From: Thermoplasmata archaeon
GTDB lineage: Archaea > Thermoplasmatota > Thermoplasmata > UBA10834
Assembly (NCBI GenBank): GCA_041554135.1
Contig: JBFFML010000001.1
Location: 95,459 to 159,458, forward strand
Length of the DNA: 64,000 nt
Direction: 5' to 3'
Every line of letters begins with the position of its first letter. Position 1 is the first letter of the stretch. Of the stretch, positions 4,373 through 37,795 are shown piece after piece. The notes under the pieces were generated by a model that was given only the letters and a program-made list of their open reading frames with translations, made no database searches and had not been told where the DNA came from. The position numbers and the translations under genes were made by a program.

Positions 4373-5167
4373 CTACGTCCCAAGGCCGGCGAAGGCCCGC
4401 AAGGCCTCCTCCTCCATGAAATGAAGCTTTCCAGGCAGGACGATCGTGTGCATCGGCGGGCCGAAGTCCCTCGTCCTCATGTCCGCTATACGCCCTGCCG
4501 CGAGAAGGCAGTCCGGCGCCCCCGCCCTGGCGACCACGCAGACCAGCGTCCGTTCTGTCAGTCCCGCCTTCCCAGGGAGCCTATCCGCCATCTCGAGGAG
4601 CGCCTCGATACCCTCGTTCGCGGACATGAACCTCCCCGCCTCGGAGTCGATGTCCAGGAGGACCACGGAGTGGAGGCCCCTCTCGAGGTTGTCGAGGATG
4701 ATCTCAAGAGGGCTGACGGGCGCATACCCTTCGCGGCTGAACGGTACGGTGGTCACGCGGCCGAGCCTGTAATGCTGGAGGCCCAGCAGACCAGGGACCG
4801 CCGTGAGGACGGACGGCGCGTGCAAGATCGACGTCTCCGTCGACTCCTTGGCAGCCCTGAGGCGGAGGTCGATGTGCGTCGTCGCGGTCATCGGGTCCCC
4901 GGCGACGAGGAGCGCCACGCGCTTGCTCCTCGCCGAGTCGATGATCAGCGAACCTTCCTCCAACTCCTTCCGGCTCAGCAGCTCTATGCGCTTACCCGTC
5001 ACGCGTTCCAGCTCCGCCAAGGCCCCGTCTTTCAGAGCAGATGTGTATTGCTCCGCGAAGACGACCTCCGCAGCAGCTATCTCCTCCAGACCTCTCGCCG
5101 AGACATCCTTCTCGTCGCAGAGGCCCAAACCGATCAGTGTGAGCCTTCCCCGTCTGTCACCGCTCAT
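4373..5167 (-). CDS. dph5: Diphthine synthase (tetrapyrrole-methylase fold)
   Basis: From ATG 5167: MSGDRRGRLTLIGLGLCDEKDVSARGLEEI...VALLVAGDPMTATTH...GLQHYRLGR...GPPMHTIVLPG. The upstream 139 codons of ORF 4373..5584 overlap trm5 and look non-coding. Confidence 0.9.
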   Translation of the reverse strand: MSGDRRGRLTLIGLGLCDEKDVSARGLEEIAAAEVVFAEQYTSALKDGALAELERVTGKRIELLSRKELEEGSLIIDSARSKRVALLVAGDPMTATTHIDLRLRAAKESTETSILHAPSVLTAVPGLLGLQHYRLGRVTTVPFSREGYAPVSPLEIILDNLERGLHSVVLLDIDSEAGRFMSANEGIEALLEMADRLPGKAGLTERTLVCVVARAGAPDCLLAAGRIADMRTRDFGPPMHTIVLPGKLHFMEEEALRAFAGLGT

Positions 5168-5266
5168 CGAGCACCTGAACAAGGATTGCTGGCCAGGTAA
5201 TTGTACTCTTTGCTGGCACCGGCCGACAGCAGCCTTATCTATTGTGGACGATGATTTGTTCGTGGC

Positions 5267-10291: not shown

Positions 10292-12235
10292 TTGTATCTG
10301 TTCAGCACATGTCCCAGAGACTGCTACGACACTTGTTCGATGATATCCCGCGTGCGAGCGGAGAAGTTGCACGCGGTGGAGCCAAACAAGAAACACCCGT
10401 TCACAGGGAAGATGCTCTGCCCGAAGGCGAAGAACCTCCAGCAGTACGTCTACTCGAAGGATCGGGTCCTTCACCCAATGATCCGGGTGGGGAAGAAGGG
10501 AAGCGGGGAGTTCGACCGGATATCCTGGAGCGTCGCGCTGAAGCGCATAGCCCAGGAGATCGCTGACCGTTCGGGCGAGTTCGGCACTCAGTCGATCGTG
10601 CAGTTCGGTCACGCGGGCAACACCGGTCTCATCCAGAGGAACTTCCCGAGCAGGTTCTTCAACGCCATCGGAGCGGCGAAGGTCGACGAGACAATATGTT
10701 CCGACGCGGGCGACAAGGCTCTCGAAGTGGTCTACGGCTCCTCCGCGGGTATGTTCCCAGAGGAGATCGAGAAGTGCAGGCTCATCGTCGTCTGGGGCAT
10801 GAACCCTGCATGGTCCAGCCCGCACACGTTCGAGATGCTGAAGCGGGCGAAGAAGGCAGGGGCGAAGATATACGTCATCGACCCGATACGGACCCCCACC
10901 GCGGAGATAGGGACGCACCTGCAGGTGAGGCCGACCATGGATGCAGTCCTCGCGCTGGGGTGCATCAACCACCTCATCGAGAACAGGCTCTGCGACGAGG
11001 ACTTCGTGAAACGCCACACCGTCGGCTTCGACAGGCTCGCGGAGATCGCCAAGAAGTTCGACATGAGGAACATATCGAAGGCGACGGGCCTCAACATCAG
11101 GGTGATCGAGGACTTCATAGCCGATTACGCCTCGATGCGTCCCAGCTGCATAATGATGGGCTACGGCATGCAGCGCAACAGGAACGGCGGCGAGATGATA
11201 CGCGCCATCAGCGTCCTGCCCGCCCTGATAGGCGAGAGGAGGGGTTTCTACTACTCCAACGATGCCGCCGTCGTCGACATGGACTACCTTCAGGGCTCGA
11301 AGCTCACGTCCCGTGTCAAGGTCCGTTACGGCATGGTGGATTTCGCGAGGACCCTGAGCACAGGCAAGGTGAAGATGGTCTTCGTGTACGGATCGAACCC
11401 GTTGGCCACGCTGCCCAACCAGTCACTTCTGAGGAAGGGGTTCTCGAGGGACGATGTGTTCGTTGTCGTGCACGAGCTCTTCATGACGGACACGGCGGAC
11501 TACGCGGACATCGTCCTCCCAGCGACGACGTTCTTCGAGCATACGGACATCAACGCGTCGTACCTGCATCCGTACCTGTCGCTCAACGAGAAGGCGATCG
11601 AGCCGCTGGGCGAGTCGAAGAGCAACACGGACCTGTTCAGGGCGTTGGCGGCGGAGATGAAGCTTTCTCACAGGGAGCTGTTCGAGGAGGACGAGAAGAT
11701 AGCGAGGCACATCGTGTCCAAGGGCAAGTCCGTCAAGGGCTCGTTCGACACGTTGAAGAAGAAAGGCTTCCTCGAGCTGAAGCTGCCGGACAGGCGCGCC
11801 TTCCCCACGCCCTCCGGGAAGATCGAGCTGTACTCGGCCTCCGCCGAGGAGGCGGGGCTCGGCGGACTGCCGATGCACATCGATGTCCAGGGCAAGCTGC
11901 CTTACCAGCTCATATCACCGGTGCACAAGCTCCTATGCCGGTCGCAATACCACAACCGGTGGGGCGATGTCGAGCCCACGGTCTACATATCGCCCAACGA
12001 CGCGAGGAGCGAGAAGGTCGAGTCGGGCTCCAAGGTCAGGTTGAAGAACGAGTTCGGCGAGATCACGGTCAGCGCGGAAGTGTCGGAGGACGTGCCCGAC
12101 GGCGTGCTGCTGGCCTACTCCGCGCTTTGGCCCAAGCTCTCCGGCGGGACGAACGTGAACTTCATCACGACGGACTTCGTCCAGCGGTTCGGCGGATGCT
12201 CGGCGCTGAACTCTACGTTCGTTGAGATCCTGTGA
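10292..12235 (+). CDS. Molybdopterin (bis-MGD) oxidoreductase family protein, cytoplasmic, substrate unknown
   Basis: N-terminal 4Fe-4S motif CPRDCYDTCSM...C. MopB-like blocks are IVVWGMNPAWS, IYVIDPIRT and ADIVLPATTFFE. A C-terminal barrel reads GDVEPTVYISPNDA...V...NEFGEI. No Tat signal is visible. Confidence 0.8.
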   Translation: MYLFSTCPRDCYDTCSMISRVRAEKLHAVEPNKKHPFTGKMLCPKAKNLQQYVYSKDRVLHPMIRVGKKGSGEFDRISWSVALKRIAQEIADRSGEFGTQSIVQFGHAGNTGLIQRNFPSRFFNAIGAAKVDETICSDAGDKALEVVYGSSAGMFPEEIEKCRLIVVWGMNPAWSSPHTFEMLKRAKKAGAKIYVIDPIRTPTAEIGTHLQVRPTMDAVLALGCINHLIENRLCDEDFVKRHTVGFDRLAEIAKKFDMRNISKATGLNIRVIEDFIADYASMRPSCIMMGYGMQRNRNGGEMIRAISVLPALIGERRGFYYSNDAAVVDMDYLQGSKLTSRVKVRYGMVDFARTLSTGKVKMVFVYGSNPLATLPNQSLLRKGFSRDDVFVVVHELFMTDTADYADIVLPATTFFEHTDINASYLHPYLSLNEKAIEPLGESKSNTDLFRALAAEMKLSHRELFEEDEKIARHIVSKGKSVKGSFDTLKKKGFLELKLPDRRAFPTPSGKIELYSASAEEAGLGGLPMHIDVQGKLPYQLISPVHKLLCRSQYHNRWGDVEPTVYISPNDARSEKVESGSKVRLKNEFGEITVSAEVSEDVPDGVLLAYSALWPKLSGGTNVNFITTDFVQRFGGCSALNSTFVEIL

Positions 12236-24659: not shown

Positions 24660-24728
24660 TACTACCTAACTCCTGCCGTGCTAAACCTTGTCAATGTGGT
24701 CGCCATTGTGCAGGACCTATAAGGCCCT

Positions 24729-24743
24729 TGCTACTGTGTAGCA
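24729..24743. promoter_or_regulatory. Perfect 6-3-6 palindrome TGCTAC-TGT-GTAGCA in the divergent promoter region
   Basis: Read directly from the sequence. It lies between the TATA-like CCTATAAGG (24716-24724) of the minus-strand operon and the TATA-like ATTTATCT (24771-24778) of the ACT-regulator gene. Confidence 0.35.
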
Positions 24744-24770
24744 GTGCGAAGGCGTACAATATGTGGCAAT

Positions 24771-24778
24771 ATTTATCT
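24771..24778 (+). promoter_or_regulatory. TATA-box candidate for the ACT-domain regulator gene (near-leaderless)
   Basis: CAATATTTATCTATTAC lies about 31-38 nt upstream of ATG 24809. Confidence 0.4.
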
Positions 24779-24808
24779 ATTACTGTACATGTATCGTCAT
24801 CGATTGGC

Positions 24809-25309
24809 ATGTGGGACAAGATAGCTAACTACTTCGAGAAATACCCGTCCCAAGCGAAGGTGGCGAGGTACCTCCTGAAGTATGGACTGCGCATAGACAG
24901 GGATCATGTGTACTGCGGGGATGTGCAGATAGCCGATTCCGCCCTCGCGAGAGCAGCGGGCGTGGACCGAAGGGTGGTGAAGTCCACCATCGAGACGATC
25001 AAGGGCGACGCCGCTCTCCTGAAGTTCTTCTCCCAGCTGCTCCCGACGAACCACCTGAAGAACGCCGCCTCGGCCATGGGTTGGAGCGCGATCGAGATCG
25101 TGCCGATGAACGCGCACGAGCCTGGCATCATATCCGGTGTCGCGGAGATACTGTCCAGGTCCAACATAAGCATACGGCAGGCGATCGTTGACGACCCGAT
25201 GACATCCGAGGAGCCGAAGCTGTTCATAGTCACGGAGAGCACCGTACCCTCGGAGACCATACCTCTGATACGTCAGGCGAAAGGCGTCAAGGGCGTGACG
25301 ATCTACTGA
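24809..25309 (+). CDS. ACT-domain regulator of amino-acid metabolism (COG2150-like, N-terminal HTH-like region)
   Basis: From ATG 24809: MWDKIANYFEKYPSQAKVARYLLKYGLRI... The C-terminal ACT-like part reads IEIVPMNAHEPGIISGVAEILSRSNISIRQAIVDDP...LFIVTE. The upstream 27 codons of ORF 24728.. span the promoter. Confidence 0.6.
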   Translation: MWDKIANYFEKYPSQAKVARYLLKYGLRIDRDHVYCGDVQIADSALARAAGVDRRVVKSTIETIKGDAALLKFFSQLLPTNHLKNAASAMGWSAIEIVPMNAHEPGIISGVAEILSRSNISIRQAIVDDPMTSEEPKLFIVTESTVPSETIPLIRQAKGVKGVTIY

Positions 25310-25348: not shown

Positions 25349-26260
25349 GTGAGCTGGCAGTTGGCGCAGAGCGATACGTCGAGGGCCTACTCCGCGATCA
25401 TCGTAGCGATGGTCTCGGTCTCGTTCGCATCGATATTCATCAAGTGGAGCGATTCCGAGCCGTTCGTCCTCGCGTTCTACAGGCTCGGTCTCACATGCCT
25501 CATACTCCTGCCACTCATGTTCTGGTCCAAGGGCTTTTCCGAGCTCAGGACGCTAGGCAGACGCGACTGGACGCTGATCGCGCTCAGCGCGGTCGCGCTC
25601 TCCCTGCACTTCGGCCTTTGGATAGTCTCCCTCGGGCTGACGCTCGTGGCGACATCGGTGGTACTTGTGACGTCTCACCCGCTGTTCGTCGCGGGCGTCT
25701 CCCACTTCATCATGAAGGAGCGCGTCCAGAGGGTCGCCGTCATCGGCATAGTCGTCGCCTTCTCCGGCGTCTGCGTGATAAGCGTCGTCGACTATGGCGA
25801 AGGTGGGTCCACGCTGCTGGGCGACATCCTGGCATTCCTCGGCGGCATATGCGCGGGGGTGTATTTCCTGTCCGGGCGGAAGGCTCGGCAGTCCGTCTCC
25901 CTCGCGCCGTATGTGTTCTCCGTCTACCTGCTCTCGGCCGTGATGCTGGCATGCGGGGCTGCGATAGTGGGCGATACGCTGCTCGTCACCGACTCGAGGG
26001 AGCTCACGCTGTTCGTGCTGCTAGCCATCGTACCGACGATCTTCGGACACACGATGTTCAACTACGCCCTCAAGAAGCTCCCGGCTCATGTCATATCGAC
26101 CAGCGTCCTGAGCGAGCCCGTCGGGGCGTCGCTCCTCGCCTTCCTGCTGTTGCCGGGAGAGGTGCCTGGGCCGTGGATCGTGGTCGGCGGCGCGATGGTC
26201 GTTGGTGGCCTGTACATCGTGCTATCCCGGGGCTCCTCTCGGCGAAACGAGAGGATATGA
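25349..26260 (+). CDS. EamA/DMT-superfamily transporter (10-TM type)
   Basis: Two EamA-like halves, hydrophobic throughout: AFYRLGLTCLILLP...VLVTSHPLF...ILAFLGGICAGVYF...TIFGHTMFNYALKKL...GGAMVVGGLYIV. Confidence 0.8.
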   Translation: MSWQLAQSDTSRAYSAIIVAMVSVSFASIFIKWSDSEPFVLAFYRLGLTCLILLPLMFWSKGFSELRTLGRRDWTLIALSAVALSLHFGLWIVSLGLTLVATSVVLVTSHPLFVAGVSHFIMKERVQRVAVIGIVVAFSGVCVISVVDYGEGGSTLLGDILAFLGGICAGVYFLSGRKARQSVSLAPYVFSVYLLSAVMLACGAAIVGDTLLVTDSRELTLFVLLAIVPTIFGHTMFNYALKKLPAHVISTSVLSEPVGASLLAFLLLPGEVPGPWIVVGGAMVVGGLYIVLSRGSSRRNERI

Positions 26261-26418
26261 TTTCGGTGCGAGGTCCTACGAGACGTCCGTGCGTTTGGCG
26301 CCTGCTTCAGCAACCCATTTAAAACCATACGCTAGCGCCATGCGAAATGACTATTAGAGGCGTCATGGATTGCCCCCGCGCTTAGGCGTTAGGCAAGTGG
26401 TGTTTGGGAGTTGTTGAT

Positions 26419-27858
26419 ATGGCGGTTGCCCGTTTAGTGATTCTGTCGAAAGAGGAGCAGGACCTGATACACGAATCCAGTATCAAGAGCCTTCAGGAGA
26501 TTGGCATGCTCATCAGGAGCGAGCCGACCCTCAAGATGCTGGAGGACGCCGGAGCCAGCGTCGACTACTCCAAGAAGATAGCGAAGATGCCCGAGTCGAT
26601 GGTGACGGAGGCGATCAGGAGTGCGCCGAAATCCATACGCCTCTGCGCCAGGGACAGCAAGAACGATCTTCAGATACCCGTCGCTGGTCCGCCGTTCGTC
26701 GCGACCACGGGGCTCGGAGTGTATGTGCGGGACATGGACACGGGCGAGAAGCGCCCTTCGACCAGGAAGGACATCGGCGACTTCATCCGCCTCGCGGATG
26801 GCCTCAAAGGCGTGGACTTCGTCTGGACGTCCATCACAGCGAACGACGTGCCTCAGTTCTCGCACGGCCTCCACGAGCTCTGGACCGCCATGCAGAACAC
26901 CACGAAGCACGTGAACGGCGTCTCGATAATGAGCGCGCCCGATTCGAGGAAACAGATAGAGCTCGCGTCGCTAATCGCGGGCGGCGAGGACGAGCTCAGG
27001 AAGCGGCCTCTGTTCTCGGTCATCTGCTGCTCCATCGCGCCTCTATCTTACGAGGGCGGCGTCGTGGAGGGAATGATCGAGTTCGTGAAGGCGGGCATCC
27101 CGATTATGTCCATGTCCATGTCGCTCTCGGGAGGTACTGCGCCAGTGACGCTCGCTGGCACGTTGACGAACGCGAACACGGAGAACCTGGCGAGCCTGGT
27201 CATCACGCAGACGGCGGCGCCCGGCTCACCGCACATATACTGCTCCTCGTCAGCTCCGATAAGCATGAAGACAGGCGTCATCAACTACATGGCGCCCGAG
27301 CAGTGTCTGATCGCGGCGGGTCTGGGACAGATGGCCCGCAGGTACGGCCTCCCGTCGATGGTGGGAGACTGGGGAGTCAACGACATCGAGACCCCAGGCG
27401 TCCCGCACTCGTTCACCGAGACCATGGGCGTGGCGCTCAGCACTATGGCCAACTCCGACCTCGTCTCCGGCATAGGGGGCATAGACGCCGTCAAAGGGGT
27501 CTCCTTCGAGCAGGCGGTCATAGAGTCCTACATCTGGGAGAACTTCCGGGGTTTCATGAGGGAGCTGGTGATATCTCCGGAGACGATCGCCCTGGACGTC
27601 GTCAGGCAGGTGGGCCACGGCAACACGTTCCTAACGCATCCCCACACCGCGAAGAACTTCCGGAAGGAGCTGTTCTTCCGGGACCCGAAGAAGCTGGCCT
27701 GGGAGGCGACGCTCTCGGACAGGATGGTGCCAGAGGCGAAGGAAGTGGCGCGGCAGATACTGAGGGAGCACACGGTCGACCCGGTGGGCGCCGAGATAGT
27801 AGCTGGAGGCGACAAGCTCATAAGGGAGTACGAGGCCGCCGCGGAGCTTCGATCGTAA
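26419..27858 (+). CDS. MttB-superfamily (trimethylamine-methyltransferase-like) protein, no in-frame amber codon
   Basis: ORF 26404..27858, with ATG 26419 preferred: MAVARLVILSKEEQDLIHESSIKSLQEIG. Full MttB length (about 480 aa). Blocks include MSLSGGTAPVTLAGTL, NGVSIMSAP and GNTFLTHPHT. Uninterrupted frame. TAA stop. Confidence 0.8.
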   Translation: MAVARLVILSKEEQDLIHESSIKSLQEIGMLIRSEPTLKMLEDAGASVDYSKKIAKMPESMVTEAIRSAPKSIRLCARDSKNDLQIPVAGPPFVATTGLGVYVRDMDTGEKRPSTRKDIGDFIRLADGLKGVDFVWTSITANDVPQFSHGLHELWTAMQNTTKHVNGVSIMSAPDSRKQIELASLIAGGEDELRKRPLFSVICCSIAPLSYEGGVVEGMIEFVKAGIPIMSMSMSLSGGTAPVTLAGTLTNANTENLASLVITQTAAPGSPHIYCSSSAPISMKTGVINYMAPEQCLIAAGLGQMARRYGLPSMVGDWGVNDIETPGVPHSFTETMGVALSTMANSDLVSGIGGIDAVKGVSFEQAVIESYIWENFRGFMRELVISPETIALDVVRQVGHGNTFLTHPHTAKNFRKELFFRDPKKLAWEATLSDRMVPEAKEVARQILREHTVDPVGAEIVAGGDKLIREYEAAAELRS

Positions 27859-27961: not shown

Positions 27962-29413
27962 GTGGTGGATATCTCCGCCTTTGCAGATAGGTTCAAAGTG
28001 AGACAACCGCAGTCGATGATGAAGGAGTCGGACAAGAAGAAGATACACGAGGCGGCGCTGGACGTGCTCGCGACGGTAGGCATAAAGGTCATGAGCAAAC
28101 CGGCGAGGGATGCCCTCAAGGCCGCTGGCGCCGAGGTCGACGAGGGCGGCGCCGTGGTGAAGTTCCCGGAGGGTCTGGTCGGTTCACTCATGAGGACAGT
28201 GCCGTCTGAGATCGTCCTCGCAGGCAGGACCAAGGAGTACGACCTGCCGCTCGACGGCACGCACCATTACTACACGACGGACGGATGCGGCATCTCGACC
28301 TGGGACCAGAGGACGCAGACACGGAGGGCGTCGGTCCTAGCGGACATCACGAAGACGGCCATAATCGGCGACTGGCTACCTTATCTCAGCATATACGAGC
28401 CCATGGTGGTGGCAAACGACGCTCCCTCGAAGATACACGTGCTCGCCGGCCTCAGGGAGGCGATGAGGAACACGTCGAAACACATAGAGACCGAGTCGAC
28501 GACGACGCCATCCGAGGCTGAAGCGCAGGTGAAGATGGCCGCGGAGGTAGTGGGGTCCGCCGAGGAGCTGAGGAAGCGGCACTACCTGTCTGCGATGGTA
28601 TGCACGATATCGCCGCTGGTGCTCGACGGAGGCGCCACGGACGCGGCCATGGTCTGGGCCGACAACCACGTCCCCGTCCACATAACAGGCATGGCGAGCA
28701 TGGGGCTGAGCGGCCCCGCGACCATCGGTGGGGCGCTGACTGTGAATCACGCGGAGACGCTGGCGCTCGCCTGTGCTATGCAGGCGCGGTCACCAGGCGC
28801 CCCGGTGCTATACGGCTCCGTCCAGTCGAGCATGGACGCACGCACAGGCGCATACAACGCCGGAGCCCCTGAGACCATACTGCTCAGCATCGGCAACATC
28901 GAGATGGCGAAGTACCTCAAGGTCCCATGCTCCGCGGGGGGGACGGGAGGCAGCTCGAGGATCCCTGGCCTTCGCGCGTCAATCGAGAACGCAGTGCTCT
29001 CCCCTCCTCTGGCGACCGTCGGAAGCGAGGTGATGAACGGCATCGGGCTCGCCGACGGCTCGACGCTGCTCTCGTACGAGCAGATGATGCTCGACCACGA
29101 GATCGTGGGCCTGATACTCAACTCCCACAGGGAGATATCGATAGACGACGACTCGCTCGCCCTCGACCTGATCAAGAAGGTGGGCATAGGCGGCAACTAC
29201 CTGACGGAGATGCACACGCTCAGGCACGTGAGGGAGTTCTACTCTCCCATGCTCTGGGACATGTCCTCCTTCGACTCATGGGTCGCCGGGGGCAAGAAGG
29301 ACCTCATGTCCGTCGCGCTCGAGAGATCCCAGAGGATACTGTCGGAGCACAAGCCCGAACCGCTGGACGCCGACAAGTCGAAGGCCTTGGACAGGATCGT
29401 GGACGAGTTCTGA
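27962..29413 (+). CDS. Second, divergent MttB-superfamily protein, no in-frame amber codon
   Basis: SDKKKIHEAALDVLATVGIKV...MASMGLSGPATIGGAL...GGNYLTEMHT...DSW. Colinear with the first copy but strongly diverged. The start is either GTG 27962, which sits inside the AAGGAGG box, or ATG 28016. Confidence 0.78.
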   Translation: MVDISAFADRFKVRQPQSMMKESDKKKIHEAALDVLATVGIKVMSKPARDALKAAGAEVDEGGAVVKFPEGLVGSLMRTVPSEIVLAGRTKEYDLPLDGTHHYYTTDGCGISTWDQRTQTRRASVLADITKTAIIGDWLPYLSIYEPMVVANDAPSKIHVLAGLREAMRNTSKHIETESTTTPSEAEAQVKMAAEVVGSAEELRKRHYLSAMVCTISPLVLDGGATDAAMVWADNHVPVHITGMASMGLSGPATIGGALTVNHAETLALACAMQARSPGAPVLYGSVQSSMDARTGAYNAGAPETILLSIGNIEMAKYLKVPCSAGGTGGSSRIPGLRASIENAVLSPPLATVGSEVMNGIGLADGSTLLSYEQMMLDHEIVGLILNSHREISIDDDSLALDLIKKVGIGGNYLTEMHTLRHVREFYSPMLWDMSSFDSWVAGGKKDLMSVALERSQRILSEHKPEPLDADKSKALDRIVDEF

Positions 29414-29566: not shown

Positions 29567-30214
29567 ATGGACGAGAACAAAGTGCTCAAGATGCTTGGAG
29601 ATGCCATCGAATCTTATGATTCTGGCGCCGCTGAGAAGGCGGCGAAGGAGGCTGTGAAGTCTAAGGTCGACCCTTTGAAGGCGATCGAGAAGGGCCTTGC
29701 GCCGTCGATAGAGCGGGTCGGCGAGAAGTTCGAGAAGATGGAGGTCTACCTGCCAGAGCTGATGCTCGCCGCGGAGGCAATGCGGTCCGCCATGGCCGTG
29801 CTGTTGCCGCTCATACCGAAGGACCAGAAGGTGTCCAAGGCGACCGTCGTGATAGGCACGGTGCAGGGAGATATCCACGAGATCGGGAAGAACATAGTCT
29901 CTAACATGTTGGTCGCGAACGGCTTCGACGTCGTTGACCTCGGGGTCGATGTGAAGACATCGACGTTCGTTGACGAGGCGAAGCGCGCGAAGGCCAAGGT
30001 CATCGGCGCCTCGGCGCTCATGTCGAGCACCATAGGCTCCCAGAAGGACATCGTCGACTATCTCGTGTCGTTGAAGGAGAGGAAGAAGTACGGGATCATG
30101 GTAGGCGGCGGACCAACGACCGGCGAGTGGGCGAAGGAGATCGGTGCGGACGGCTGGGGCGAGGACGCGGCGTCGACGGTGAAGCTGGCGAACAAGTTGG
30201 CGAAGGGGAAGTGA
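29567..30214 (+). CDS. Corrinoid (cobalamin-binding) methyl-carrier protein, MtmC/MtbC/MttC/MtgC type
   Basis: N-terminal helical cap, then a Rossmann B12 domain: VVIGTVQGDIHEIGKNIV (DxHxxG), IGASALMSST (SxL) and IMVGGGP (GG). Confidence 0.88.
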   Translation: MDENKVLKMLGDAIESYDSGAAEKAAKEAVKSKVDPLKAIEKGLAPSIERVGEKFEKMEVYLPELMLAAEAMRSAMAVLLPLIPKDQKVSKATVVIGTVQGDIHEIGKNIVSNMLVANGFDVVDLGVDVKTSTFVDEAKRAKAKVIGASALMSSTIGSQKDIVDYLVSLKERKKYGIMVGGGPTTGEWAKEIGADGWGEDAASTVKLANKLAKGK

Positions 30215-30218
30215 TGGT

Positions 30219-31604
30219 TTGGTCCAGATCCTCGACGTGATGGAGAAGGCGCTCGAGGGCAAGCCCATGAGCGAGACGGACTACCAGCTGAGGAGTTTCG
30301 CGCCAAAGGTCCAGGAGAAGGTGAAGGAGTACGGCATCAAGTTCGACCCCGCGAAGCCGATACCGGACGACGGGTCGTTGGCGGATGATTTGTTCGAGGC
30401 GGCCGTGGACCTTCTCGCCGACGTCGGCGCCTACTGCACGAGCACCGCTCGGGTCATATCGTACTCGGAGAAGGAGATACGGAGGGCCATCGCGGAAGCG
30501 CCCGAGGAGATCGAGCTCGGCGAGGGGCGCGACCGCAAGACGCTGAGGGGCAGGAAGGTCGGCGACAAGACCCCCCCGTGGTGCCTGTTGGGCGCTGGCG
30601 GAGGCGCCTGCTCCAGCGACAAGTCGTTCATCACCCTCGTGGAGGGCTATGCGGAGATCCCAGAGACGAACGGCATAACGACCCCTGCCATAACCCGGGT
30701 CGGGGGAATGAGGATACGTCCCGCTTCACCGCTGGAGCTGTTGGGGGCTATGAGGAACGCGGTGCTGGCGAGGGAGACATGCAACAGGGTGGGCCGTGAG
30801 GGCATACCTATAATGAACTCGTTATCGACGGCCGAGTCGGACATCGCCTTCGCGGCGGCGTTGCACCCCAAGTTCGGCATGCGTAGGTCCGACGCGTACA
30901 TGATCTGCTGCATGGACCCGATGAAGGTCGACTTCGCAAGGCTGAACAAGGTCACCACCGCGCTCTCGCTGGGCGGCCCGATAGGCATGTGCGAGGGGCC
31001 TTTGCTGGGAGGCTACGCCGGCGGCGCGGAGGGCACGGCCTTGTCCAATGTGGCCCACCACATGATGGGCGTGCTGACGTACCAATCGAGCTGGATACTG
31101 CCGTTCCCTCTTCACCTGAGGTATGTGTCGAGCAGCTGCAGGGAGCTGCTCTGGGTGATCAGCGCCACGGGACAGGCGATCAGCCGCAACTCGCACATCA
31201 TCAGTCTGAACCTGAACTACACGTCTGCGGGACCGTGCACGACCATGTGCCTGTTCGAGACGTCCGCGTCGGTGCTTGCGGCCGTCACGGCCGGCATGTC
31301 GATAGAGTCCGTGGGCGTCGCGTCCAACCGATACGAGGACAGGACGACCCCGGTCGAGCCGAGGATATCCGCGGAGGTCGGACACGCCGTCGCTGGCATG
31401 AAGCTCTCCGACGCCAACGAGGTTGCGGGGAAGCTGTTGTCCAAGTACGAGTCGAAGCTCTCGGACGCGCCGCTGGGCAAGGGCTTGTACGAGTGCTGGG
31501 ACGCGGACAAGAGGCGTCCATCCAAGGAGTACAAGACGGTCATCAAATCGTACAAGCGTTCGATGTCCGGCCTGGGTGTGGAACTTAAGGACGAGCTCGC
31601 CTGA
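30219..31604 (+). CDS. MtmB-family (monomethylamine-methyltransferase-like) protein lacking the pyrrolysine codon
   Basis: 461 uninterrupted codons, colinear with MtmB as I recall it. Blocks: GEGRDRKTLRGRKVGDK, LLGGYAGGAEGTAL, NYTSAGPCTTMCLFETSAS and LSKYESKLSDAPLGKGLYECWD. The Pyl-loop region reads GREGIPIMNSLSTAES (Met at nt 30813-30815). Start TTG 30219, GTG 30237 or ATG 30240, which is 4-25 nt after the corrinoid gene stop. Confidence 0.8.
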   Translation: MVQILDVMEKALEGKPMSETDYQLRSFAPKVQEKVKEYGIKFDPAKPIPDDGSLADDLFEAAVDLLADVGAYCTSTARVISYSEKEIRRAIAEAPEEIELGEGRDRKTLRGRKVGDKTPPWCLLGAGGGACSSDKSFITLVEGYAEIPETNGITTPAITRVGGMRIRPASPLELLGAMRNAVLARETCNRVGREGIPIMNSLSTAESDIAFAAALHPKFGMRRSDAYMICCMDPMKVDFARLNKVTTALSLGGPIGMCEGPLLGGYAGGAEGTALSNVAHHMMGVLTYQSSWILPFPLHLRYVSSSCRELLWVISATGQAISRNSHIISLNLNYTSAGPCTTMCLFETSASVLAAVTAGMSIESVGVASNRYEDRTTPVEPRISAEVGHAVAGMKLSDANEVAGKLLSKYESKLSDAPLGKGLYECWDADKRRPSKEYKTVIKSYKRSMSGLGVELKDELA

Positions 31605-31687: not shown

Positions 31688-32344
31688 TCACTCGACTGGC
31701 GGCTTGATGACGCCTTTCCTCGGAGGTCCGAACCTCATCCAGATGAGGAGTCCCAGTATCAGCGCGAGCGGTATGATGAGGGCTATGCACACGTATGTCC
31801 CTAGCCGACCGAGCTCCCAGGGGAGTTTCTCCTCGTAGAAGTCCACCTCGTTGTCCGCGTACGTGTTGTCCTCGACGCGGGCGCCCTCGCTGTAGACGAC
31901 ATACACGCCGTAGTCGCACCCTGAGATGGTGTTGTCCACGATGGCGCACTTGTCCGAGTACGAGACGCGTATTCCGATCGTGTGATTCGTAATCACACAG
32001 CCATCGACCCTGACGTTCTCCACTTCCTGCAGTTTGACGCCGAAGCTGCCGTTCTTCAGGACGACGTCCCTTATGACCAGGTGCCTGGTCGTTTCGACAA
32101 CCCAGATGCATGTCACGGAGCCTAAGCCGTCTATCTCCAGACTCTCGATTATGTATGGGTCGTCGGAGGTCCCGGACCCTGATGACACGCCGTTGGCGGA
32201 CGTGAAGTCCTCGTCACTCAGTATCTTGATGGGGGACGACGGCGTCAGCTGCGCCGACGCTTCCGCCGAGGCTGACGGTGATACGCATGCGGCGCTTGCC
32301 GTCACCACACCGAGAAGAACCGCGACGACCAAGAGTTTGATCAT
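31688..32344 (-). CDS. Secreted, C-terminally membrane-anchored right-handed beta-helix (NosD/pectin-lyase-fold) repeat protein
   Basis: Signal peptide MIKLLVVAVLLGVVTASAACV. Repeated beta-helix turns: V..N...G..L. / CVITNHTIGIRV / AIVDNTISGCDYGVYV / ARVEDNTYA. C-terminal TM segment YVCIALIIPLALILGLLIW. Confidence 0.6.
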   Translation of the reverse strand: MIKLLVVAVLLGVVTASAACVSPSASAEASAQLTPSSPIKILSDEDFTSANGVSSGSGTSDDPYIIESLEIDGLGSVTCIWVVETTRHLVIRDVVLKNGSFGVKLQEVENVRVDGCVITNHTIGIRVSYSDKCAIVDNTISGCDYGVYVVYSEGARVEDNTYADNEVDFYEEKLPWELGRLGTYVCIALIIPLALILGLLIWMRFGPPRKGVIKPPVE

Positions 32345-34582: not shown

Positions 34583-37500
34583 CTAGGTGCTCCTGTGGAA
34601 CGACGCGAGGTCGTTGACTTCGATACCCCTCACCGACGCGTGTTCCATCGCTTGCACGGCCGCGCGGGCCCCTTGGACCGTCGTGAACATCGGTATCTCG
34701 AGCTCGACCGCGAGCCTCCGCATCATGTATCCGTCCCGCCTCGCGCCTGAGGACTCCGTGGGCGTGTTGACGATCATCTGGACCTCCCCGCGTCTCATCA
34801 GCGAGAGGGCGTCCGGCGATACGTTCTCCGATATCCTGTAGACCGTGGTGACCTCCAATCCATGCGACTTCAGGTAGGTCGCGGTCCCCTTCGTCGCGAA
34901 CAAGCCGAAGCCCATCGCCTTGAGCCTCGAGGCTATGCCGCGCAAGCCCTCCCCCTTGTGCTCGTCGCTTACGCTGATGTACACGTTGCCCCTCGACGGC
35001 AGCTTCTGGCCCGATGCCACGAGCGCCTTCCAGGTCGCCGCGGGATACGACCTGTCGATGCCCATGACCTCGCCGGTCGACTTCATCTCAGGCCCGAGTA
35101 TGCTGTCGACGCCAGGAAGCTTGAGGAACGGGAACACGGACGCCTTGACCGCCACATGCCCGATCCGCGCCTCCCCCGTGAGGTTCAGCTCCTCGAGGGT
35201 CTTGCCGAGCATGAGCTTGGTGGCGACCTTCGCGAGGGGGACGCCCGTGGCCTTCGACACGATAGGGACGGTCCTGCTGGCCCTCGGGTTCGCCTCCAGC
35301 ATGTAGACCGTGCCATCCTTGTACGCCAGCTGCAGATTCATCAGCCCTTTGGTGTTCAACGCGAGCGCGACCTTTCTTGTTATGGCCCTTATTTCGTTCA
35401 ACACATCTTCCGACAGCGTCTGTGGCGGCAGGACCATGGCGGCGTCTCCGGAATGCACCCCCGCCTCCTCGATATGCTCAAGTATCCCGCCTATGTAGAC
35501 GTCCTTCCCGTCGCATACCGCGTCGACGTCTATCTCGATCGCGTGCGTGAGGTATTTGTCCACGAGTATGGGATGATGTTTGGACACCTTCGCCGCCGAC
35601 CTCATGTACGTCTCGAGTTCCGTCTCGTTGTAGACTATCTCCATCGCCCGTCCCCCGAGGACGTAACTCGGTCTTATCAGGACGGGGTAGCCGATATCCC
35701 CGGCGAGCCCCTTGACCTCCTGGAAAGAGAAGCCCGTCCCAGACCTGGGTTGCGGGATGCCGAGTTCGGTCATCAGCTCGGAGAAACGCTCTCTGTCCTC
35801 GGCAAGGTCTATCGCGTCGGGAGAGGTGCCGAGCATCTCCGTCTTGGTCCCCTTCAAAGCCTCCTGGAGTGGCATCGCGAGGTTGATGGCCGTCTGGCCT
35901 CCGAACTGTAGCAGCACGCCGTCGGCGTCCTCCCTCTCCACCACATTGAGCACGTCCTCTGCCGTGATGGGCTCGAAGTACAGCCTCGTGGAGACATCGA
36001 AATCCGTCGAGACGGTCTCCGGGTTGTTGTTGATTATCACAGCGTCCACCCCCTCCTCCTTGAGCGCGAGCGACGCGTGGACGCAGCAGTAGTCGAACTC
36101 TATACCCTGGCCTATCCGGATCGGCCCGCCGCCGACGACCACCACCTTCTTGCGGTCCGAAGGGCGCGCCTCGCATTCGAGTTCGTAGGTCGAGTAGAAG
36201 TACGGGGTCTCCGCCTCGAACTCCGCTGCGCAGGAGTCCACCATCTTGTACACCGGTGAGAGCGATATCGCCTTCCTGCTGGCGCGGACCTCGCTCACTT
36301 GGCGGCCAGTCATTCTCGATATGTGCTCGTCTCCGAAGCCCAGGCTCTTGGCCAGCCTGAGCGTCTCGTCGTCCGCACCGCCTCTCAGCCTTGCCTCGAG
36401 CTTGACCAGCCGGTCGATCTTGCGCACGAAGAACGGGTCCCAGGCCGTCAGTTCGCAGACCTTCTCCACGGACGCCCCGCGCCTGAGCGCCTCCGCGATC
36501 GCGAAGAGCCGCACATCCGTCGCCTCTGTCAGGAGGCGCTCCAGCTGTTCGTCCGTCCAGTCGTCGCCTTCGAGCCCGACCTTGTCGATCTCCAGGGAAC
36601 GGATGGCCTTGAGCAGCGCCTCCTCGAAGCGCCGCCCTATCGCCATGACCTCCCCCGTGCTCTTCATCTGGGTGCCCAGCCGCGCGTCGACCGTCCTGAA
36701 CTTGTCGAACGGCCACCTCGGTATCTTCACGACGATGTAGTCTATCGACGGCTCGAAGGCGGCGCAGGTCTTCTTGGTGATCGCGTTCGGTATCTCGTCG
36801 AGGGTCATGCCGACGGCGACCTTGGCCGCCACCCTCGCGATCGGATAGCCCGTGGCCTTCGACGCCAGAGCGGAGCTCCTGGATACGCGCGGGTTCACCT
36901 CGATTATCCTGTACTCGCCGGTGTCATGGTTGAAAGCGAATTGTATGTTCGCCCCGCCTTCGATCTTCAGCGCGCGGATGATCTTGAGGGCCGAGGACCG
37001 CAACATCTGGTGGTCGGCGTCGCTCAGCGTCTGGGCGGGGGCGACCACGATGCTCTCCCCGGTGTGTATGCCCATCGGGTCCAGGTTTTCCATGTTGCAC
37101 ACTATCATCGTGTTGTCGTTGGAGTCGCGCATGACCTCGTACTCGTACTCCTTCCACCCTATGACGCTCTCCTCGATCAGCACCTGCCTTATCCTCGAGT
37201 ATATCAGGCCTCTGCCCGCAATGTGCGTCAGCTCTTCCTCGTCGTTGGCGATCCCGCCCCCGGTACCTCCGAGGGTGTACGCCGGCCGTACCAGCACGGG
37301 ATATCCGCCGATCGCCTCGACCGCCCTCTTCGCCTCCTCGATGGACTCCACGGTACTGCTCTTCGGTATCGGCTCGTCCAGCGACAGCATCGCCTTCCTG
37401 AAAAGTTCCCTGTCTTCCGAGAGGGCTATGGCCCTCGTCTTCGTGCCCAGCAGCTCCACGCCGAGCCGCTCGAGCGTGCCGTTCTCCGCGAGCTCGGAGC

Positions 37501-37795
37501 ACAGGTTCAGTGCGGTCTGGCCTCCCATGCCCGCGAGTATGCCTTCCACGCCCTCCTTCTCCAGGATCTTCGAGACGACGTCGCTGTCCAGCGGTTCGAT
37601 GTAGACGAAATCGGCGGTCTCAGTGTCCGTCTGTATCGTTGCCGGGTTGGAGTTGACGAGCACTGTCGTGTAGCCTTCCTCCCTGAGCGACTTGCATGCT
37701 TGCGACCCCGAGAAGTCGAACTCCGCGGCCTGCCCTATCACTATCGGACCAGAGCCTATCACCATCAGCTTCTTGAGGTCAGTCCGTTTGGGCAT
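34583..37795 (-). CDS. carB: Carbamoyl-phosphate synthase large subunit
   Basis: 1070 aa: MPKRTDLKKLMVIGSGPIVIGQAAEFDFSGSQACK... with two ATP-grasp halves and a C-terminal MGS-like domain. The start overlaps the carA stop by 1 nt (TGATG). TAG stop. Confidence 0.97.
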   Translation of the reverse strand: MPKRTDLKKLMVIGSGPIVIGQAAEFDFSGSQACKSLREEGYTTVLVNSNPATIQTDTETADFVYIEPLDSDVVSKILEKEGVEGILAGMGGQTALNLCSELAENGTLERLGVELLGTKTRAIALSEDRELFRKAMLSLDEPIPKSSTVESIEEAKRAVEAIGGYPVLVRPAYTLGGTGGGIANDEEELTHIAGRGLIYSRIRQVLIEESVIGWKEYEYEVMRDSNDNTMIVCNMENLDPMGIHTGESIVVAPAQTLSDADHQMLRSSALKIIRALKIEGGANIQFAFNHDTGEYRIIEVNPRVSRSSALASKATGYPIARVAAKVAVGMTLDEIPNAITKKTCAAFEPSIDYIVVKIPRWPFDKFRTVDARLGTQMKSTGEVMAIGRRFEEALLKAIRSLEIDKVGLEGDDWTDEQLERLLTEATDVRLFAIAEALRRGASVEKVCELTAWDPFFVRKIDRLVKLEARLRGGADDETLRLAKSLGFGDEHISRMTGRQVSEVRASRKAISLSPVYKMVDSCAAEFEAETPYFYSTYELECEARPSDRKKVVVVGGGPIRIGQGIEFDYCCVHASLALKEEGVDAVIINNNPETVSTDFDVSTRLYFEPITAEDVLNVVEREDADGVLLQFGGQTAINLAMPLQEALKGTKTEMLGTSPDAIDLAEDRERFSELMTELGIPQPRSGTGFSFQEVKGLAGDIGYPVLIRPSYVLGGRAMEIVYNETELETYMRSAAKVSKHHPILVDKYLTHAIEIDVDAVCDGKDVYIGGILEHIEEAGVHSGDAAMVLPPQTLSEDVLNEIRAITRKVALALNTKGLMNLQLAYKDGTVYMLEANPRASRTVPIVSKATGVPLAKVATKLMLGKTLEELNLTGEARIGHVAVKASVFPFLKLPGVDSILGPEMKSTGEVMGIDRSYPAATWKALVASGQKLPSRGNVYISVSDEHKGEGLRGIASRLKAMGFGLFATKGTATYLKSHGLEVTTVYRISENVSPDALSLMRRGEVQMIVNTPTESSGARRDGYMMRRLAVELEIPMFTTVQGARAAVQAMEHASVRGIEVNDLASFHRST

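What the first reader, a model, noticed from the sequence alone, without database searches (positions are those of the whole stretch)
30219..31604. MtmB-family methyltransferase gene with no pyrrolysine (amber) codon
The ORF is 461 uninterrupted codons and is colinear end to end with monomethylamine methyltransferase MtmB. I recall the Methanosarcina barkeri enzyme as about 458 aa.

Shared blocks:
- G.GRD....R.VGDK
- GGYAGG.E.T
- Y..AGPCT.MCL.E.SA
- the C-terminal LY/SKYE..Y..AP.GK...EC.D

Canonical MtmB has an in-frame UAG decoded as pyrrolysine near residue 202, in the loop ...GRPGMGV-O-GPETSLS.... Pyl is thought to bind and activate the methylamine. Here the equivalent stretch reads ...GREGIPIMNSLSTAES.... 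My by-eye alignment puts Met199 (nt 30813-30815) or Asn200 at the Pyl position. The loop is about 2 residues shorter and contains no TAG.

Pyl-free MttB relatives are established quaternary-amine methyltransferases (MtgB, MtpB, MtcB, MtyB). I know of no characterised Pyl-free MtmB-family enzyme. The substrate is therefore open: it could be a non-amine methyl donor, or an amine bound by a different chemistry.

The gene starts 4-25 nt after the corrinoid-protein gene, so the two are almost certainly co-translated partners.
Basis: partly seen in the sequence, partly recalled or inferred. Interest (0 to 1): 0.8.

Follow-up and report, generated by a model that had tools for sequence, protein, structure and literature searches.

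The report
Pyrrolysine-free MtmB-type methyltransferase with corrinoid partner
This is an intact, conserved MtmB-family methyltransferase gene without the pyrrolysine codon, paired with its corrinoid-protein gene in an uncultured non-methanogenic Thermoplasmata archaeon; such pyrrolysine-free MtmB homologues are common, and one was characterised in 2026, so it is an uncharacterised member of a known kind.

Summary
ORF 30219-31604 (461 codons, no internal stop) is a full-length MtmB-family protein: Pfam PF05369 scores 316 bits, and the model matches M. barkeri MtmB at TM 0.95. ATG (Met199, nt 30813-30815) sits at the pyrrolysine position. It is not an assembly error. More than 120 orthologues (76-95% identity) and 50 or so GTDB species genomes carry the same uninterrupted gene. 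dN/dS is 0.04-0.25, and TAG ends 23% of the window's genes.

The host belongs to, or is close to, Thermoplasmata order UBA10834 (Ca. Gimiplasmatales), reported to lack mcr and pyl genes. The conserved unit is corrinoid gene then MtmB-like gene, 4-15 nt apart. The upstream EamA transporter and two Pyl-free MttB genes occur only in the closest relatives.

The novelty claim does not hold. Pyl-free MtmB homologues form most of the family. This gene has already been listed as "mtmB" in MAG papers. MtqB, a Pyl-free MtmB, was shown in March 2026 to demethylate tetramethylammonium and choline.

What stays open is the substrate. This clade is at most 40% identical to any other cluster and has its own Met/Cys/aromatic pocket signature. 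My best guess is a quaternary-ammonium methyl donor feeding a folate-linked pathway.

The parts
30219..31604 (+). Pyl-free MtmB-superfamily substrate:corrinoid methyltransferase (MT1), 461 aa, TTG start, TGA stop
   Evidence: Pfam PF05369 at 316 bits, full length. PDB 1l2q E 2.4e-70. AF2 pLDDT 95.8 and Foldseek TM 0.95 to 1l2q/1nth. 120 orthologues at 76-95% identity. dN/dS 0.04-0.25.
30813..30815 (+). ATG codon for Met199, the residue in the pyrrolysine (Pyl202) column of M. barkeri MtmB
   Evidence: HMMER alignment and MAFFT family alignments agree. Met is present in 99% of 120 clade members. It is also the commonest residue in this column across Pyl-free homologues (52 of 259). It lies on predicted strand 198-200.
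30897..30920 (+). Codons for Y227-M228-I229-C230-C231-M232-D233-P234, a clade-specific invariant barrel-strand motif. It replaces H228-E229-V230-S231-Q232-L233-N234-E235 of M. barkeri MtmB.
   Evidence: All residues except I229 are invariant in the 120 clade sequences. Y227, C230, C231, M232, D233 and P234 are also rare elsewhere. The P234 column is Glu in 298 of 357 other family members. Predicted strand 227-230.
30987..30992 (+). Codons for M257-C258, replacing D258-E259 of M. barkeri MtmB
   Evidence: Invariant in the clade. Met occurs at this column in 1% and Cys in 4% of other family members. Predicted strand 255-259.
29567..30214 (+). Cognate corrinoid (cobalamin-binding) protein, 215 aa, with the DxHxxG motif DIHEIG at residues 102-107
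   Evidence: Pfam B12-binding_2 plus B12-binding. NCBIfam MtgC, pyl_corrinoid and MtbC models score 183-198 bits, all below their cut-offs. Motif found. A corrinoid gene lies directly upstream of the MtmB-like gene in about 45 of 56 related loci, and also in distant homologues from Thermoproteota, Methanomethyliaceae and Bacillota.
30205..30221 (+). Gene junction: Shine-Dalgarno-like GGGGAAGTGA that includes the corrinoid gene's TGA stop, a 4-nt gap, then the TTG start
   Evidence: Read directly from the sequence. The same junction recurs in 14 orthologous loci, with ATG, GTG or TTG at the same codon. Translational coupling is inferred, not shown.
27962..29413 (+). Pyl-free MttB-superfamily methyltransferase paralogue 2 (483 aa)
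   Evidence: Pfam PF06253 at 284 bits. TIGR02369 scores 386 bits, below its 525 cut-off. PDB matches to MttB 7xcl at 1.6e-60 and MtgB 2qne/9yce at 5e-56. No in-frame TAG. In the operon only in the closest relatives.
26404..27858 (+). Pyl-free MttB-superfamily methyltransferase paralogue 1 (484 aa)
   Evidence: Pfam PF06253 at 230 bits. Val aligns with Pyl334 of M. barkeri MttB. No in-frame TAG.
25349..26260 (+). EamA-family (drug/metabolite transporter) membrane protein at the head of the gene row; candidate substrate importer
   Evidence: Pfam PF00892, two repeats. Syntenic in L001, L003-L006, L008, L009 and L032. The importer role is inferred.

Best explanation
The gene encodes a working, pyrrolysine-independent member of the MtmB superfamily. 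It is a TIM-barrel methyl-donor:corrinoid methyltransferase (MT1).

The corrinoid protein is encoded 4 nt upstream. The two genes form a module that is conserved across Thermoplasmata of the UBA10834 / Ca. Gimiplasmatales type.

Proposed mechanism:
1. The enzyme binds a methylated compound in the barrel pocket. There Pyl202 and the polar residues conserved with it in M. barkeri-type MtmB are replaced by a Met/Cys/aromatic set: M199, Y227, M228, C230, M257, C258, W292, L332, W427.
2. It passes one methyl group to Co(I) of the corrinoid protein.
3. A pterin-binding MT2 encoded elsewhere in the genome moves the methyl group on to tetrahydrofolate (or a related pterin), for acetogenic or assimilatory use.

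The most likely donor is a compound whose nitrogen is already quaternary (choline-, tetramethylammonium- or betaine-like) and so needs no Pyl adduct. Monomethylamine is less likely. In this lineage two Pyl-free MttB-type enzymes and an EamA transporter have been added upstream, and they probably load the same corrinoid protein.

Shown: family, fold, absence of Pyl, purifying selection and the conserved gene pairing. Inferred: activity, substrate class, the MT2 step and translational coupling.
For: Family and fold.

Real and functional:
- 120 uninterrupted orthologues at 76-95% identity.
- 56 loci in GTDB species genomes, none with an internal stop in those translated.
- dN/dS 0.04-0.25.

No Pyl decoding:
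- TAG ends 12 of 52 window genes, including carB. Pyl users are below 5% and non-users at 17-18% (PMC12180501).
- No tRNA gene in the window.
- UBA10834 MAGs are reported to lack pylBCDS and mcr (Zinke et al. preprint).

Pairing with the corrinoid protein: directly upstream in about 45 of 56 loci and in distant homologues, with a conserved junction.

Substrate class:
- The only characterised Pyl-free MtmB, MtqB, uses tetramethylammonium and choline. It has the same corrinoid-then-methyltransferase gene order. Its modelled pocket is described as rich in sulfur-containing and aromatic residues (PMC13044021).
- The window clade's invariant pocket positions are Met, Cys, Trp and Tyr.
- The neighbouring genes are two Pyl-free MttB-family members, a family whose characterised Pyl-free members use quaternary amines.

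Folate-side acceptor:
- A PF00809 pterin-binding protein and a second corrinoid protein lie about 8.5 kb from the module in a related closed chromosome (L060).
- The H4F methyl branch is reported for these MAGs (PMC11264602).
Against: - No biochemical data exist for any member of this clade.
- The clade is at most 40% identical to any other cluster. I could not obtain the MtqB sequence, so its distance from MtqB is bounded but not measured.
- The pocket signature is unique among 357 other family members sampled, so function cannot simply be transferred from MtqB.
- No MT2 gene and no RamA-type activator were found in the 64-kb window; about 43 of the roughly 50 long ORFs were scanned against Pfam.
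- Published MAG analyses did not find a second methyltransferase.
- Which residues truly line the pocket is inferred from strand positions and alignment.
Confidence: 0.6

Rival explanations
1. It is a true monomethylamine:corrinoid methyltransferase that works without pyrrolysine. This is what its automatic annotation implies, and it is how MAG papers have used it ("mtmB, methylamine").
For: - Full-length MtmB family and fold.
- MtqB, also Pyl-free, showed low monomethylamine activity of 11 nmol/min/mg.
- MAG papers count the gene as methylamine use.
Against: - Pyl202 is replaced by Met.
- Residues that M. barkeri MtmB shares with its nearest relatives around the Pyl position (E259, Q333, Y334, H228, E235) are replaced by C258, L332, N333, Y227 and P234.
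- The monomethylamine activity of MtqB was a minor side reaction.
- The window shows no Pyl decoding: TAG is 23% of stops.
Confidence: 0.12
2. It uses a non-amine methyl donor, such as methanol, methylated thiols or DMSP, methoxylated aromatics or a halomethane. The donor would be activated by a Cys/His-based site, possibly holding a metal, that has replaced the Pyl site.
For: - C230, C231, C258 and H280 are invariant in the main orthologue group.
- They change together to A, S, D and S/T in the second paralogue group of the same genomes (L042-L045, L052). The rest of the signature stays. That pattern fits a joint function such as metal binding.
- A Pyl-free MtmB homologue is the most induced protein on dichloromethane in Ca. 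Formimonas warabiya.
- From my own knowledge: the methanol methyltransferase MtaB uses a Glu/Cys/Cys zinc site on a TIM barrel.
Against: - H280 lies in the middle of a predicted helix (270-287). The four residues may therefore be a packing cluster rather than a site.
- No coordinates were available to measure distances.
- The MtqB pocket is also described as Met/Cys-rich, yet it binds quaternary amines.
- The neighbouring genes are amine-type (MttB family) methyltransferases.
Confidence: 0.2
3. In this lineage the three MT1 enzymes work in series on one compound, all through the single corrinoid protein. The two MttB-type enzymes would remove the first methyl groups from a trimethylated amine, and the MtmB-type enzyme would remove the last N-methyl group.
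For: Four genes lie in a row on one strand (MttB, MttB, corrinoid, MtmB-like) with one corrinoid gene and one transporter. This order is conserved in nine related loci.
Against: - The corrinoid/MtmB-like pair stands alone, without the MttB pair, in most of the 56 loci. The MtmB-like enzyme therefore has a function of its own.
- The gaps of 103-153 nt between the upstream genes do not prove one transcript.
- To my knowledge, no Pyl-free enzyme has been shown to demethylate a secondary amine efficiently.
Confidence: 0.07
4. The missing amber codon is an artefact (assembly or consensus error) or the gene is a decaying pseudogene.
For: None found.
Against: - Met199 is present in 99% of 120 independent orthologues.
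- The same uninterrupted gene occurs in 50 or so species genomes, three of them closed chromosomes.
- dN/dS is well below 1.
- The structure model is confident.
Confidence: 0.01

Closest known systems
MtqB/MtqC of Methanococcoides methylutens Q3c (tetramethylammonium/choline:corrinoid methyltransferase and its corrinoid protein; PMC13044021, 2026)
   Same: - A Pyl-free MtmB-superfamily MT1 of almost the same length (459 vs 461 aa).
- The corrinoid gene (216 vs 215 aa) lies directly upstream.
- Its pocket is described as rich in Met, Cys and aromatic residues.
- It is the only family member without Pyl that has a demonstrated substrate.
   Different: - The host there is a methanogen that passes the methyl group to coenzyme M through MtbA. 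Here the host type is reported as non-methanogenic and lacking MtaA/MtbA.
- Sequence identity could not be measured, but it cannot exceed about 40%. No protein outside the window's clade does.
- The window clade's pocket signature was found in no other sampled family member.
MtmB1/MtmC of Methanosarcina barkeri (Pyl-dependent monomethylamine methyltransferase; PDB 1NTH, 1L2Q)
   Same: Same Pfam family and the same fold (33% identity, TM 0.95, rmsd 1.4 A). Colinear over the whole length. Works with a B12-binding corrinoid protein.
   Different: - There is no UAG/Pyl; Met199 takes its place.
- E259, Q333, Y334, H228 and E235 are replaced by C258, L332, N333, Y227 and P234.
- The segment after the Pyl position is 2 residues longer.
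- The host does not appear to decode UAG.
Pyl-free MttB-superfamily systems (MtgB/MtgC/MtgA of Desulfitobacterium hafniense; MtcB, MtpB and MtyB of Eubacterium limosum)
   Same: Same logic. Each is a Pyl-free relative of a Pyl-dependent methylamine methyltransferase that uses a quaternary amine. Each has a cognate corrinoid protein and a pterin-binding MT2 that delivers the methyl group to tetrahydrofolate in a non-methanogen. Two such MttB-family genes sit in the same gene row here.
   Different: A different, unrelated sequence family (PF06253 vs PF05369). The Foldseek match to the window model is only TM about 0.5.
Pyl-free MtmB-superfamily protein Ga0180325_111810 of Ca. Formimonas warabiya DCMF (PMC9768040)
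   Same: A Pyl-free MtmB homologue in a non-methanogen, with a proposed role outside monomethylamine demethylation.
   Different: It is bacterial, about 30% identical to other family members, and induced on dichloromethane. Its substrate is also unproven. Its relation to the window clade was not tested.

Membership tests
MtmB superfamily (Pfam PF05369) | A full-length match to the family profile above the curated cut-off | tested here: met
   316 bits against a cut-off of 25. Residues 2-453 cover profile positions 1-449 of 450.
MtmB superfamily (Pfam PF05369) | The TIM-barrel fold of M. barkeri MtmB | tested here: met
   AF2 model with pLDDT 95.8. Foldseek to 1l2q/1nth/1tv2: TM 0.95, rmsd 1.4 A, 452 columns.
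Pyl-dependent monomethylamine methyltransferase (MtmB proper) | An in-frame UAG decoded as pyrrolysine at the position of Pyl202 | tested here: not met
   The codon is ATG (Met199, nt 30813-30815). There is no in-frame TAG. Met is present in 99% of 120 orthologues.
Pyl-dependent monomethylamine methyltransferase (MtmB proper) | The residues that M. barkeri MtmB shares with its nearest relatives around the Pyl site (H228, E235, E259, Q333, Y334) | tested here: not met
   They are replaced by Y227, P234, C258, L332 and N333, all invariant in the clade. That E259, Q333 and Y335 contact the Pyl ring is my recollection of Hao et al. 2002/2004. I could not confirm it in the library.
Pyl-dependent monomethylamine methyltransferase (MtmB proper) | A host with the Pyl machinery (pylTSBCD) and rare use of TAG as a stop codon | tested here: not met
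   TAG is 12 of 52 stop codons (23%) in the window, against under 5% in Pyl users. No tRNA gene in the window. UBA10834 MAGs are reported to lack pyl genes. The whole genome of this organism was not available.
Pyl-dependent monomethylamine methyltransferase (MtmB proper) | Monomethylamine-dependent methylation of the corrinoid | not testable with these tools
   This needs an enzyme assay.
MtqB-type Pyl-free MtmB (quaternary amine methyltransferase) | An MtmB homologue without Pyl | tested here: met
MtqB-type Pyl-free MtmB (quaternary amine methyltransferase) | A cognate corrinoid protein gene directly upstream | tested here: met
   Corrinoid gene 29567-30214 ends 4 nt before the start. In Q3c the corrinoid protein is peg.949 and MtqB is peg.950.
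MtqB-type Pyl-free MtmB (quaternary amine methyltransferase) | Membership of the MtqB clade in the family tree (sequence orthology) | tested here: inconclusive
   The MtqB sequence could not be retrieved. The upper bound is about 40% identity, because no protein outside the clade exceeds this. The clade forms its own branch in a neighbour-joining tree.
MtqB-type Pyl-free MtmB (quaternary amine methyltransferase) | Tetramethylammonium- or choline-dependent cob(I)alamin methylation | not testable with these tools
   This needs an enzyme assay.
Three-component corrinoid methyltransferase system (MT1 + corrinoid protein + MT2, with a RamA-type activator) | MT2 and a reductive activator encoded with or near the MT1 and corrinoid genes | tested here: not met
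   None was found among the 43 or so window ORFs scanned against Pfam. A PF00809 pterin-binding candidate lies about 8.5 kb from the module in a related chromosome (L060). The rest of this genome could not be searched.

The most novel reading that the evidence does not exclude
This Thermoplasmata clade may be a separate functional type within the MtmB fold. Its block of Cys230/Cys231/Cys258/His280 is invariant here and swapped as a set in the sister paralogue. The block might form a metal or thiol-based site that activates a kind of methyl donor not yet linked to this family. Candidates are O-, S- or halogen-bound methyl groups, or the secondary or tertiary amine left by the two upstream MttB-type enzymes. 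If so, an uncultured non-methanogenic archaeon would have a new route of anaerobic methylotrophy.
Probability: 0.15. Interest if true: 0.65.

Novelty: new member of a known kind. Interest (0 to 1): 0.35.

Why it matters
Automatic annotation calls this gene "monomethylamine:corrinoid methyltransferase", and MAG studies have read it as evidence that Ca. Gimiplasmatales use methylamine. Without pyrrolysine, and with a rebuilt pocket, that reading is probably wrong.

The true donor would decide what these widespread soil and sediment archaea take from the pool of methylated compounds that otherwise feeds methanogens. The clade is large, tightly conserved and paired with its own corrinoid protein. 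It is therefore a clean target for the second functional assignment in the Pyl-free MtmB family.

It is not a new kind of system.

Tried and rejected
**MtqB sequence (ACT9XH_RS04775).** I tried to retrieve it so that identity and tree position could be measured.
- The paper's supplements hold no sequences.
- Neither cluster look-up gave a Methanococcoides name. Two further protein searches, seeded with the homologues nearest M. barkeri MtmB and with the Methanohalobium homologue, found none that fits MtqB.
- The M. methylutens MM1 homologue (P0433, 456 aa) is an orphan paralogue with no corrinoid neighbour.
- Methanococcoides sp. LMO-2 P0470 and P0200 could not be equated with MtqB.

**Assembly error or hidden TAG.** Rejected.

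**Recent loss of Pyl from the sister order's MtmB.** Rejected. The window protein is only 25-28% identical to Methanomassiliicoccales-type MtmBs (P0326, P0180). It groups instead, at about 40%, with Bathyarchaeia and Thorarchaeota homologues and with other, unnamed ones.

**P0141 as a Pyl-split relative.** This 260-aa fragment starts exactly at the Pyl-equivalent Met. Its contig reads GRPGLPI-MNS with no TAG, so it is only a contig-edge gene call.

**Confirming which M. barkeri residues contact Pyl.** Not found in the library.

**Promoter and terminator scan of the operon.** No more matches than in shuffled sequence.

**Zinc-site idea for the covarying Cys/His residues.** Untestable, because model coordinates are not returned.
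Full report
**1. The observation**

The ORF at 30219-31604 (+) is 461 codons long. It ends in TGA and has no in-frame TAG.
- Pfam places it in PF05369 (MtmB) at 316 bits, matching the profile from position 1 to 449 of 450.
- Against PDB sequences the only hits are the M. barkeri MtmB1 entries (E 2.4e-70), colinear over 6-454 versus 11-456.
- An AlphaFold model built on 141 aligned sequences has pLDDT 95.8 and pTM 0.94. It superposes on 1L2Q/1NTH/1TV2 at TM 0.95 and rmsd 1.4 A over 452 columns. The next matches (MttB, MtgB) are at TM about 0.5.

Membership of the family and the fold is therefore certain.

**2. The pyrrolysine position**

HMMER and two MAFFT family alignments all put Met199 (ATG, 30813-30815) in the column of Pyl202. 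Asn200 is an extra residue directly after it.

Counted between conserved anchors (window R193..D225, M. barkeri R196..D226), the window has 32 residues against 30.

Across 259 full-length family members the Pyl column holds Met in 52, Leu in 27, Ile in 24, Gln in 22 and His in 18. A hydrophobic residue there is the usual state of Pyl-free homologues.

**3. Not an artefact**

- The 120 best database matches are all uninterrupted proteins of 453-463 aa, at 76-95% identity, from Thermoplasmata metagenome bins.
- A scan of one genome per GTDB species found 56 loci, including three closed chromosomes (CP070748.1, CP070732.1, CP070736.1).
- Met199 is kept in 99% of the 120 clade sequences.
- dN/dS against orthologues is 0.04-0.06 for close pairs and 0.10-0.25 for distant ones. 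dS is near saturation, so these values are rough.
- The start codon is supported. Orthologues carry ATG, GTG or TTG at the codon matching 30219, a few bases after the corrinoid gene's stop. A GGGGAAGTGA/AGGTGA stretch overlaps that stop.

**4. The organism and its genetic code**

Relatives with the same flanking housekeeping genes (DeoC, PPIase, AsnC-TRASH regulator, Thi4, carAB) are Thermoplasmata bins. Orthologues also occur in UBA10834, UBA9653, RBG_19FT_COMBO_56_21 and RBG_13_57_23. These are the genomes that define order UBA10834 / Ca. Gimiplasmatales and its genus COMBO-56-21 (PMC11264602).
- Those bins were reported to lack mcr, pylBCDS and MtaA-type second methyltransferases (Zinke et al. 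preprint).
- They were reported to carry the tetrahydrofolate methyl branch and acs genes, which led to a proposal of methylotrophic acetogenesis.
- In the window itself TAG ends 12 of 52 genes (23%), including carB. Pyl-using methanogens use TAG for under 5% of stops and non-users for 17-18% (PMC12180501).
- No tRNA gene is in the window.

UAG is therefore an ordinary stop codon here.

**5. Anatomy of the locus**

The row on the + strand is:
- EamA transporter (25349-26260)
- MttB-family protein 1 (26404-27858)
- MttB-family protein 2 (27962-29413)
- corrinoid protein (29567-30214, with DIHEIG at residues 102-107)
- MtmB-like gene (30219-31604)

Both MttB-family proteins fall below the NCBIfam cut-off for the Pyl enzyme and have no in-frame TAG. 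Protein 1 has Val opposite Pyl334 of M. barkeri MttB.

The full row is conserved only in the closest relatives (L001, L003-L006, L008, L009, L032). In contrast, the corrinoid gene lies directly upstream of the MtmB-like gene in about 45 of 56 loci. It does so even in homologues at 32-39% identity from Thermoproteota, Ca. Methanomethyliaceae and Bacillota. The two-gene pair is the conserved functional unit, and the MttB pair is a lineage-specific addition.

In more distant members of the order the pair sits next to a divergent PAS/GAF histidine kinase and an ABC transporter. In one closed chromosome a PF00809 pterin-binding protein with a second corrinoid protein lies about 8.5 kb away. This is a plausible MT2 of the kind MAG surveys reported as missing.

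No MT2 gene and no RamA-type activator were found in the 64-kb window.

**6. Place in the family**

An exhaustive HMMER search of 1.84 billion cluster representatives found 925 clusters with E up to 0.001 and 209 with E up to 1e-30.
- The best full-length hits outside the window's own clade are only 38-40% identical.
- Most of the 150 listed are uninterrupted proteins of about 455-470 aa, which means Pyl-free.
- In a neighbour-joining tree the Thermoplasmata sequences form their own branch.
- The nearest relatives, at about 40% identity, include Thorarchaeota (P0343) and Bathyarchaeia (P0373, and the P0123 cluster). A Thermoleophilia homologue is at 38%.
- The window protein is 33% identical to M. 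barkeri MtmB1 and 25-28% identical to Methanomassiliicoccales-type MtmBs. It is therefore not a recent Pyl-loss derivative of the sister order's enzyme.

**7. The pocket**

I compared 120 clade sequences with 357 other family members. The clade has invariant residues that are rare elsewhere at positions that fall on predicted barrel strands 198-200, 227-230, 255-259 and 328-334:

| Window residue | M. barkeri MtmB residue |
|---|---|
| M199 | Pyl202 |
| Y227 | H228 |
| C230, C231, M232, D233, P234 | S231, Q232, L233, N234, E235 |
| M257, C258 | D258, E259 |
| L332, N333 | Q333, Y334 |

M228 aligns with E229 of M. barkeri MtmB. It is kept in every clade member checked but is not rare elsewhere.

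W121, W292 and W427 are also clade-invariant. The P234 column is Glu in 298 of 357 other members, and the W427 column is Tyr in 318 of 357.

No other sampled sequence has this combination. That these M. barkeri residues contact the Pyl ring is my recollection of Hao et al. (2002, 2004). I could not confirm it in the paper library.

A second paralogue group in the same genomes (65-70% identical, with no corrinoid neighbour) keeps most of the signature. It changes C230, C231, C258, H280 and W292 together to A, S, D, S/T and Y. The joint change suggests these residues act together, but H280 lies mid-helix. Without coordinates I cannot tell a site from a packing cluster.

**8. What is already known**

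- PMC13044021 (Front Microbiol, March 2026) identified MtqB of Methanococcoides methylutens Q3c as a Pyl-free MtmB homologue. It is abundant on tetramethylammonium and choline. The recombinant protein methylates cob(I)alamin from tetramethylammonium (37 nmol/min/mg), choline (42) and weakly monomethylamine (11), but not from trimethylamine or glycine betaine.
- Its corrinoid protein (216 aa) is encoded directly upstream of the 459-aa enzyme.
- The modelled pocket is described as rich in sulfur-containing and aromatic residues.
- The authors state that non-Pyl MtmBs have been known for years, and they built a tree of 1,061 sequences.
- A Pyl-free MtmB homologue was the most induced protein in dichloromethane-grown Ca. 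Formimonas warabiya (PMC9768040).
- The gene in Ca. Gimiplasmatales has been listed as "mtmB" and read as methylamine use.

**9. Most likely function**

The shown steps are family, fold, loss of Pyl, selection and pairing with a corrinoid protein. From these I infer a Pyl-independent MT1 that methylates the Co(I) form of the neighbouring corrinoid protein.

A quaternary-ammonium donor is the best-supported class, at roughly 45% by my estimate. The reasons are:
- the only characterised Pyl-free MtmB uses such donors;
- a quaternary nitrogen needs no Pyl adduct;
- the clade's pocket is Met/Cys/Trp/Tyr-rich, as described for MtqB;
- the neighbouring genes belong to the family whose Pyl-free members use quaternary amines.

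The methyl group would then go to a pterin through a PF00809-type MT2 encoded elsewhere.

Rivals, with my confidence in each:
- monomethylamine without Pyl: 0.12
- a non-amine donor at a Cys/His site: 0.20
- serial demethylation with the two MttB enzymes: 0.07
- artefact: 0.01

**10. Verdict**

Its claim to novelty rests on a gap in knowledge that has since been filled, and on an impression of rarity that the databases do not support.

The finding is an uncharacterised, well-delimited subfamily of a known kind of enzyme, in an uncultured archaeal order where the gene has been misread as a methylamine marker. That is useful but not surprising. I score interest at 0.35 and rate novelty as a new member of a known kind.

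Noticed in passing
L042:1685-3046, L043:10001-11371, L044:1037-2413, L045:711-2087, L052:67-1443: The same Thermoplasmata genomes carry a second MtmB-like paralogue (65-70% identical, with no adjacent corrinoid gene). It keeps most of the clade's pocket signature but changes C230, C231, C258, H280 and W292 together to A, S, D, S/T and Y. Three Cys and one His covary as a block.
   Followed up: partly
L060:1-1589 and L060:6960-9140 (OY970070.1); L061:6985-9078: In a closed COMBO-56-21-like chromosome, a PF00809 pterin-binding protein and a second corrinoid protein lie about 8.5 kb upstream of the corrinoid/MtmB-like pair. This is a candidate for the MT2 that MAG papers reported as missing. A PAS/GAF histidine kinase is divergently adjacent to the pair in both L060 and L061. 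An SBP_bac_5 ABC-transporter binding-protein gene lies nearby in both, and its two permease genes are called in L060.
   Followed up: partly
L065:3001-4389 (WQXR01000002.1, Methanomassiliicoccaceae MAG): An MtmB that is 46% identical to M. barkeri MtmB1 keeps most of its site signature (H228, E259, Q333 and Y334 equivalents). It has AAG (Lys), not TAG, at the Pyl position. A PylC-like gene lies 200 nt downstream.
   Followed up: partly
window 1-64000: TAG is the stop codon of 12 of 52 confident genes (23%), including carB (34583-37795). ARAGORN finds no tRNA gene anywhere in the 64 kb.
   Followed up: yes
window 24728-25309 (+): A 193-aa ORF directly upstream of the EamA gene has no Pfam match. 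It is 85-92% identical in relatives and syntenic with the operon. Its C-terminal half looks like an ACT-type ligand-binding domain by eye, so it may be a regulator.
   Followed up: no
window 31688-32344 (-): A NosD/right-handed beta-helix protein (218 aa) lies between the MtmB-like gene and the PPIase gene. Among the related loci it occurs only here and in L032.
   Followed up: no
L054:7942-11350 (Ca. Methanomethyliaceae MAG): A corrinoid gene is followed by two tandem Pyl-free MtmB-like genes, 32-34% identical to the window protein.
   Followed up: no
window 10292-12235 (+), 50498-51799 (+), 4373-5584 (-): A formate-dehydrogenase-like molybdopterin oxidoreductase, a serine hydroxymethyltransferase and a tetrapyrrole (corrin/porphyrin) methylase with a roughly 145-aa N-terminal extension lie in the same window. 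All could bear on C1 or corrinoid metabolism, but none is linked to the operon.
   Followed up: no
L062:5826-9383 and L063:492-4049: Another Pyl-free corrinoid/MtmB-like pair (P0200, 39% identical to M. barkeri MtmB1) sits directly beside a DDE transposase on two independent metagenome contigs. This hints that the two-gene module is mobile.
   Followed up: no
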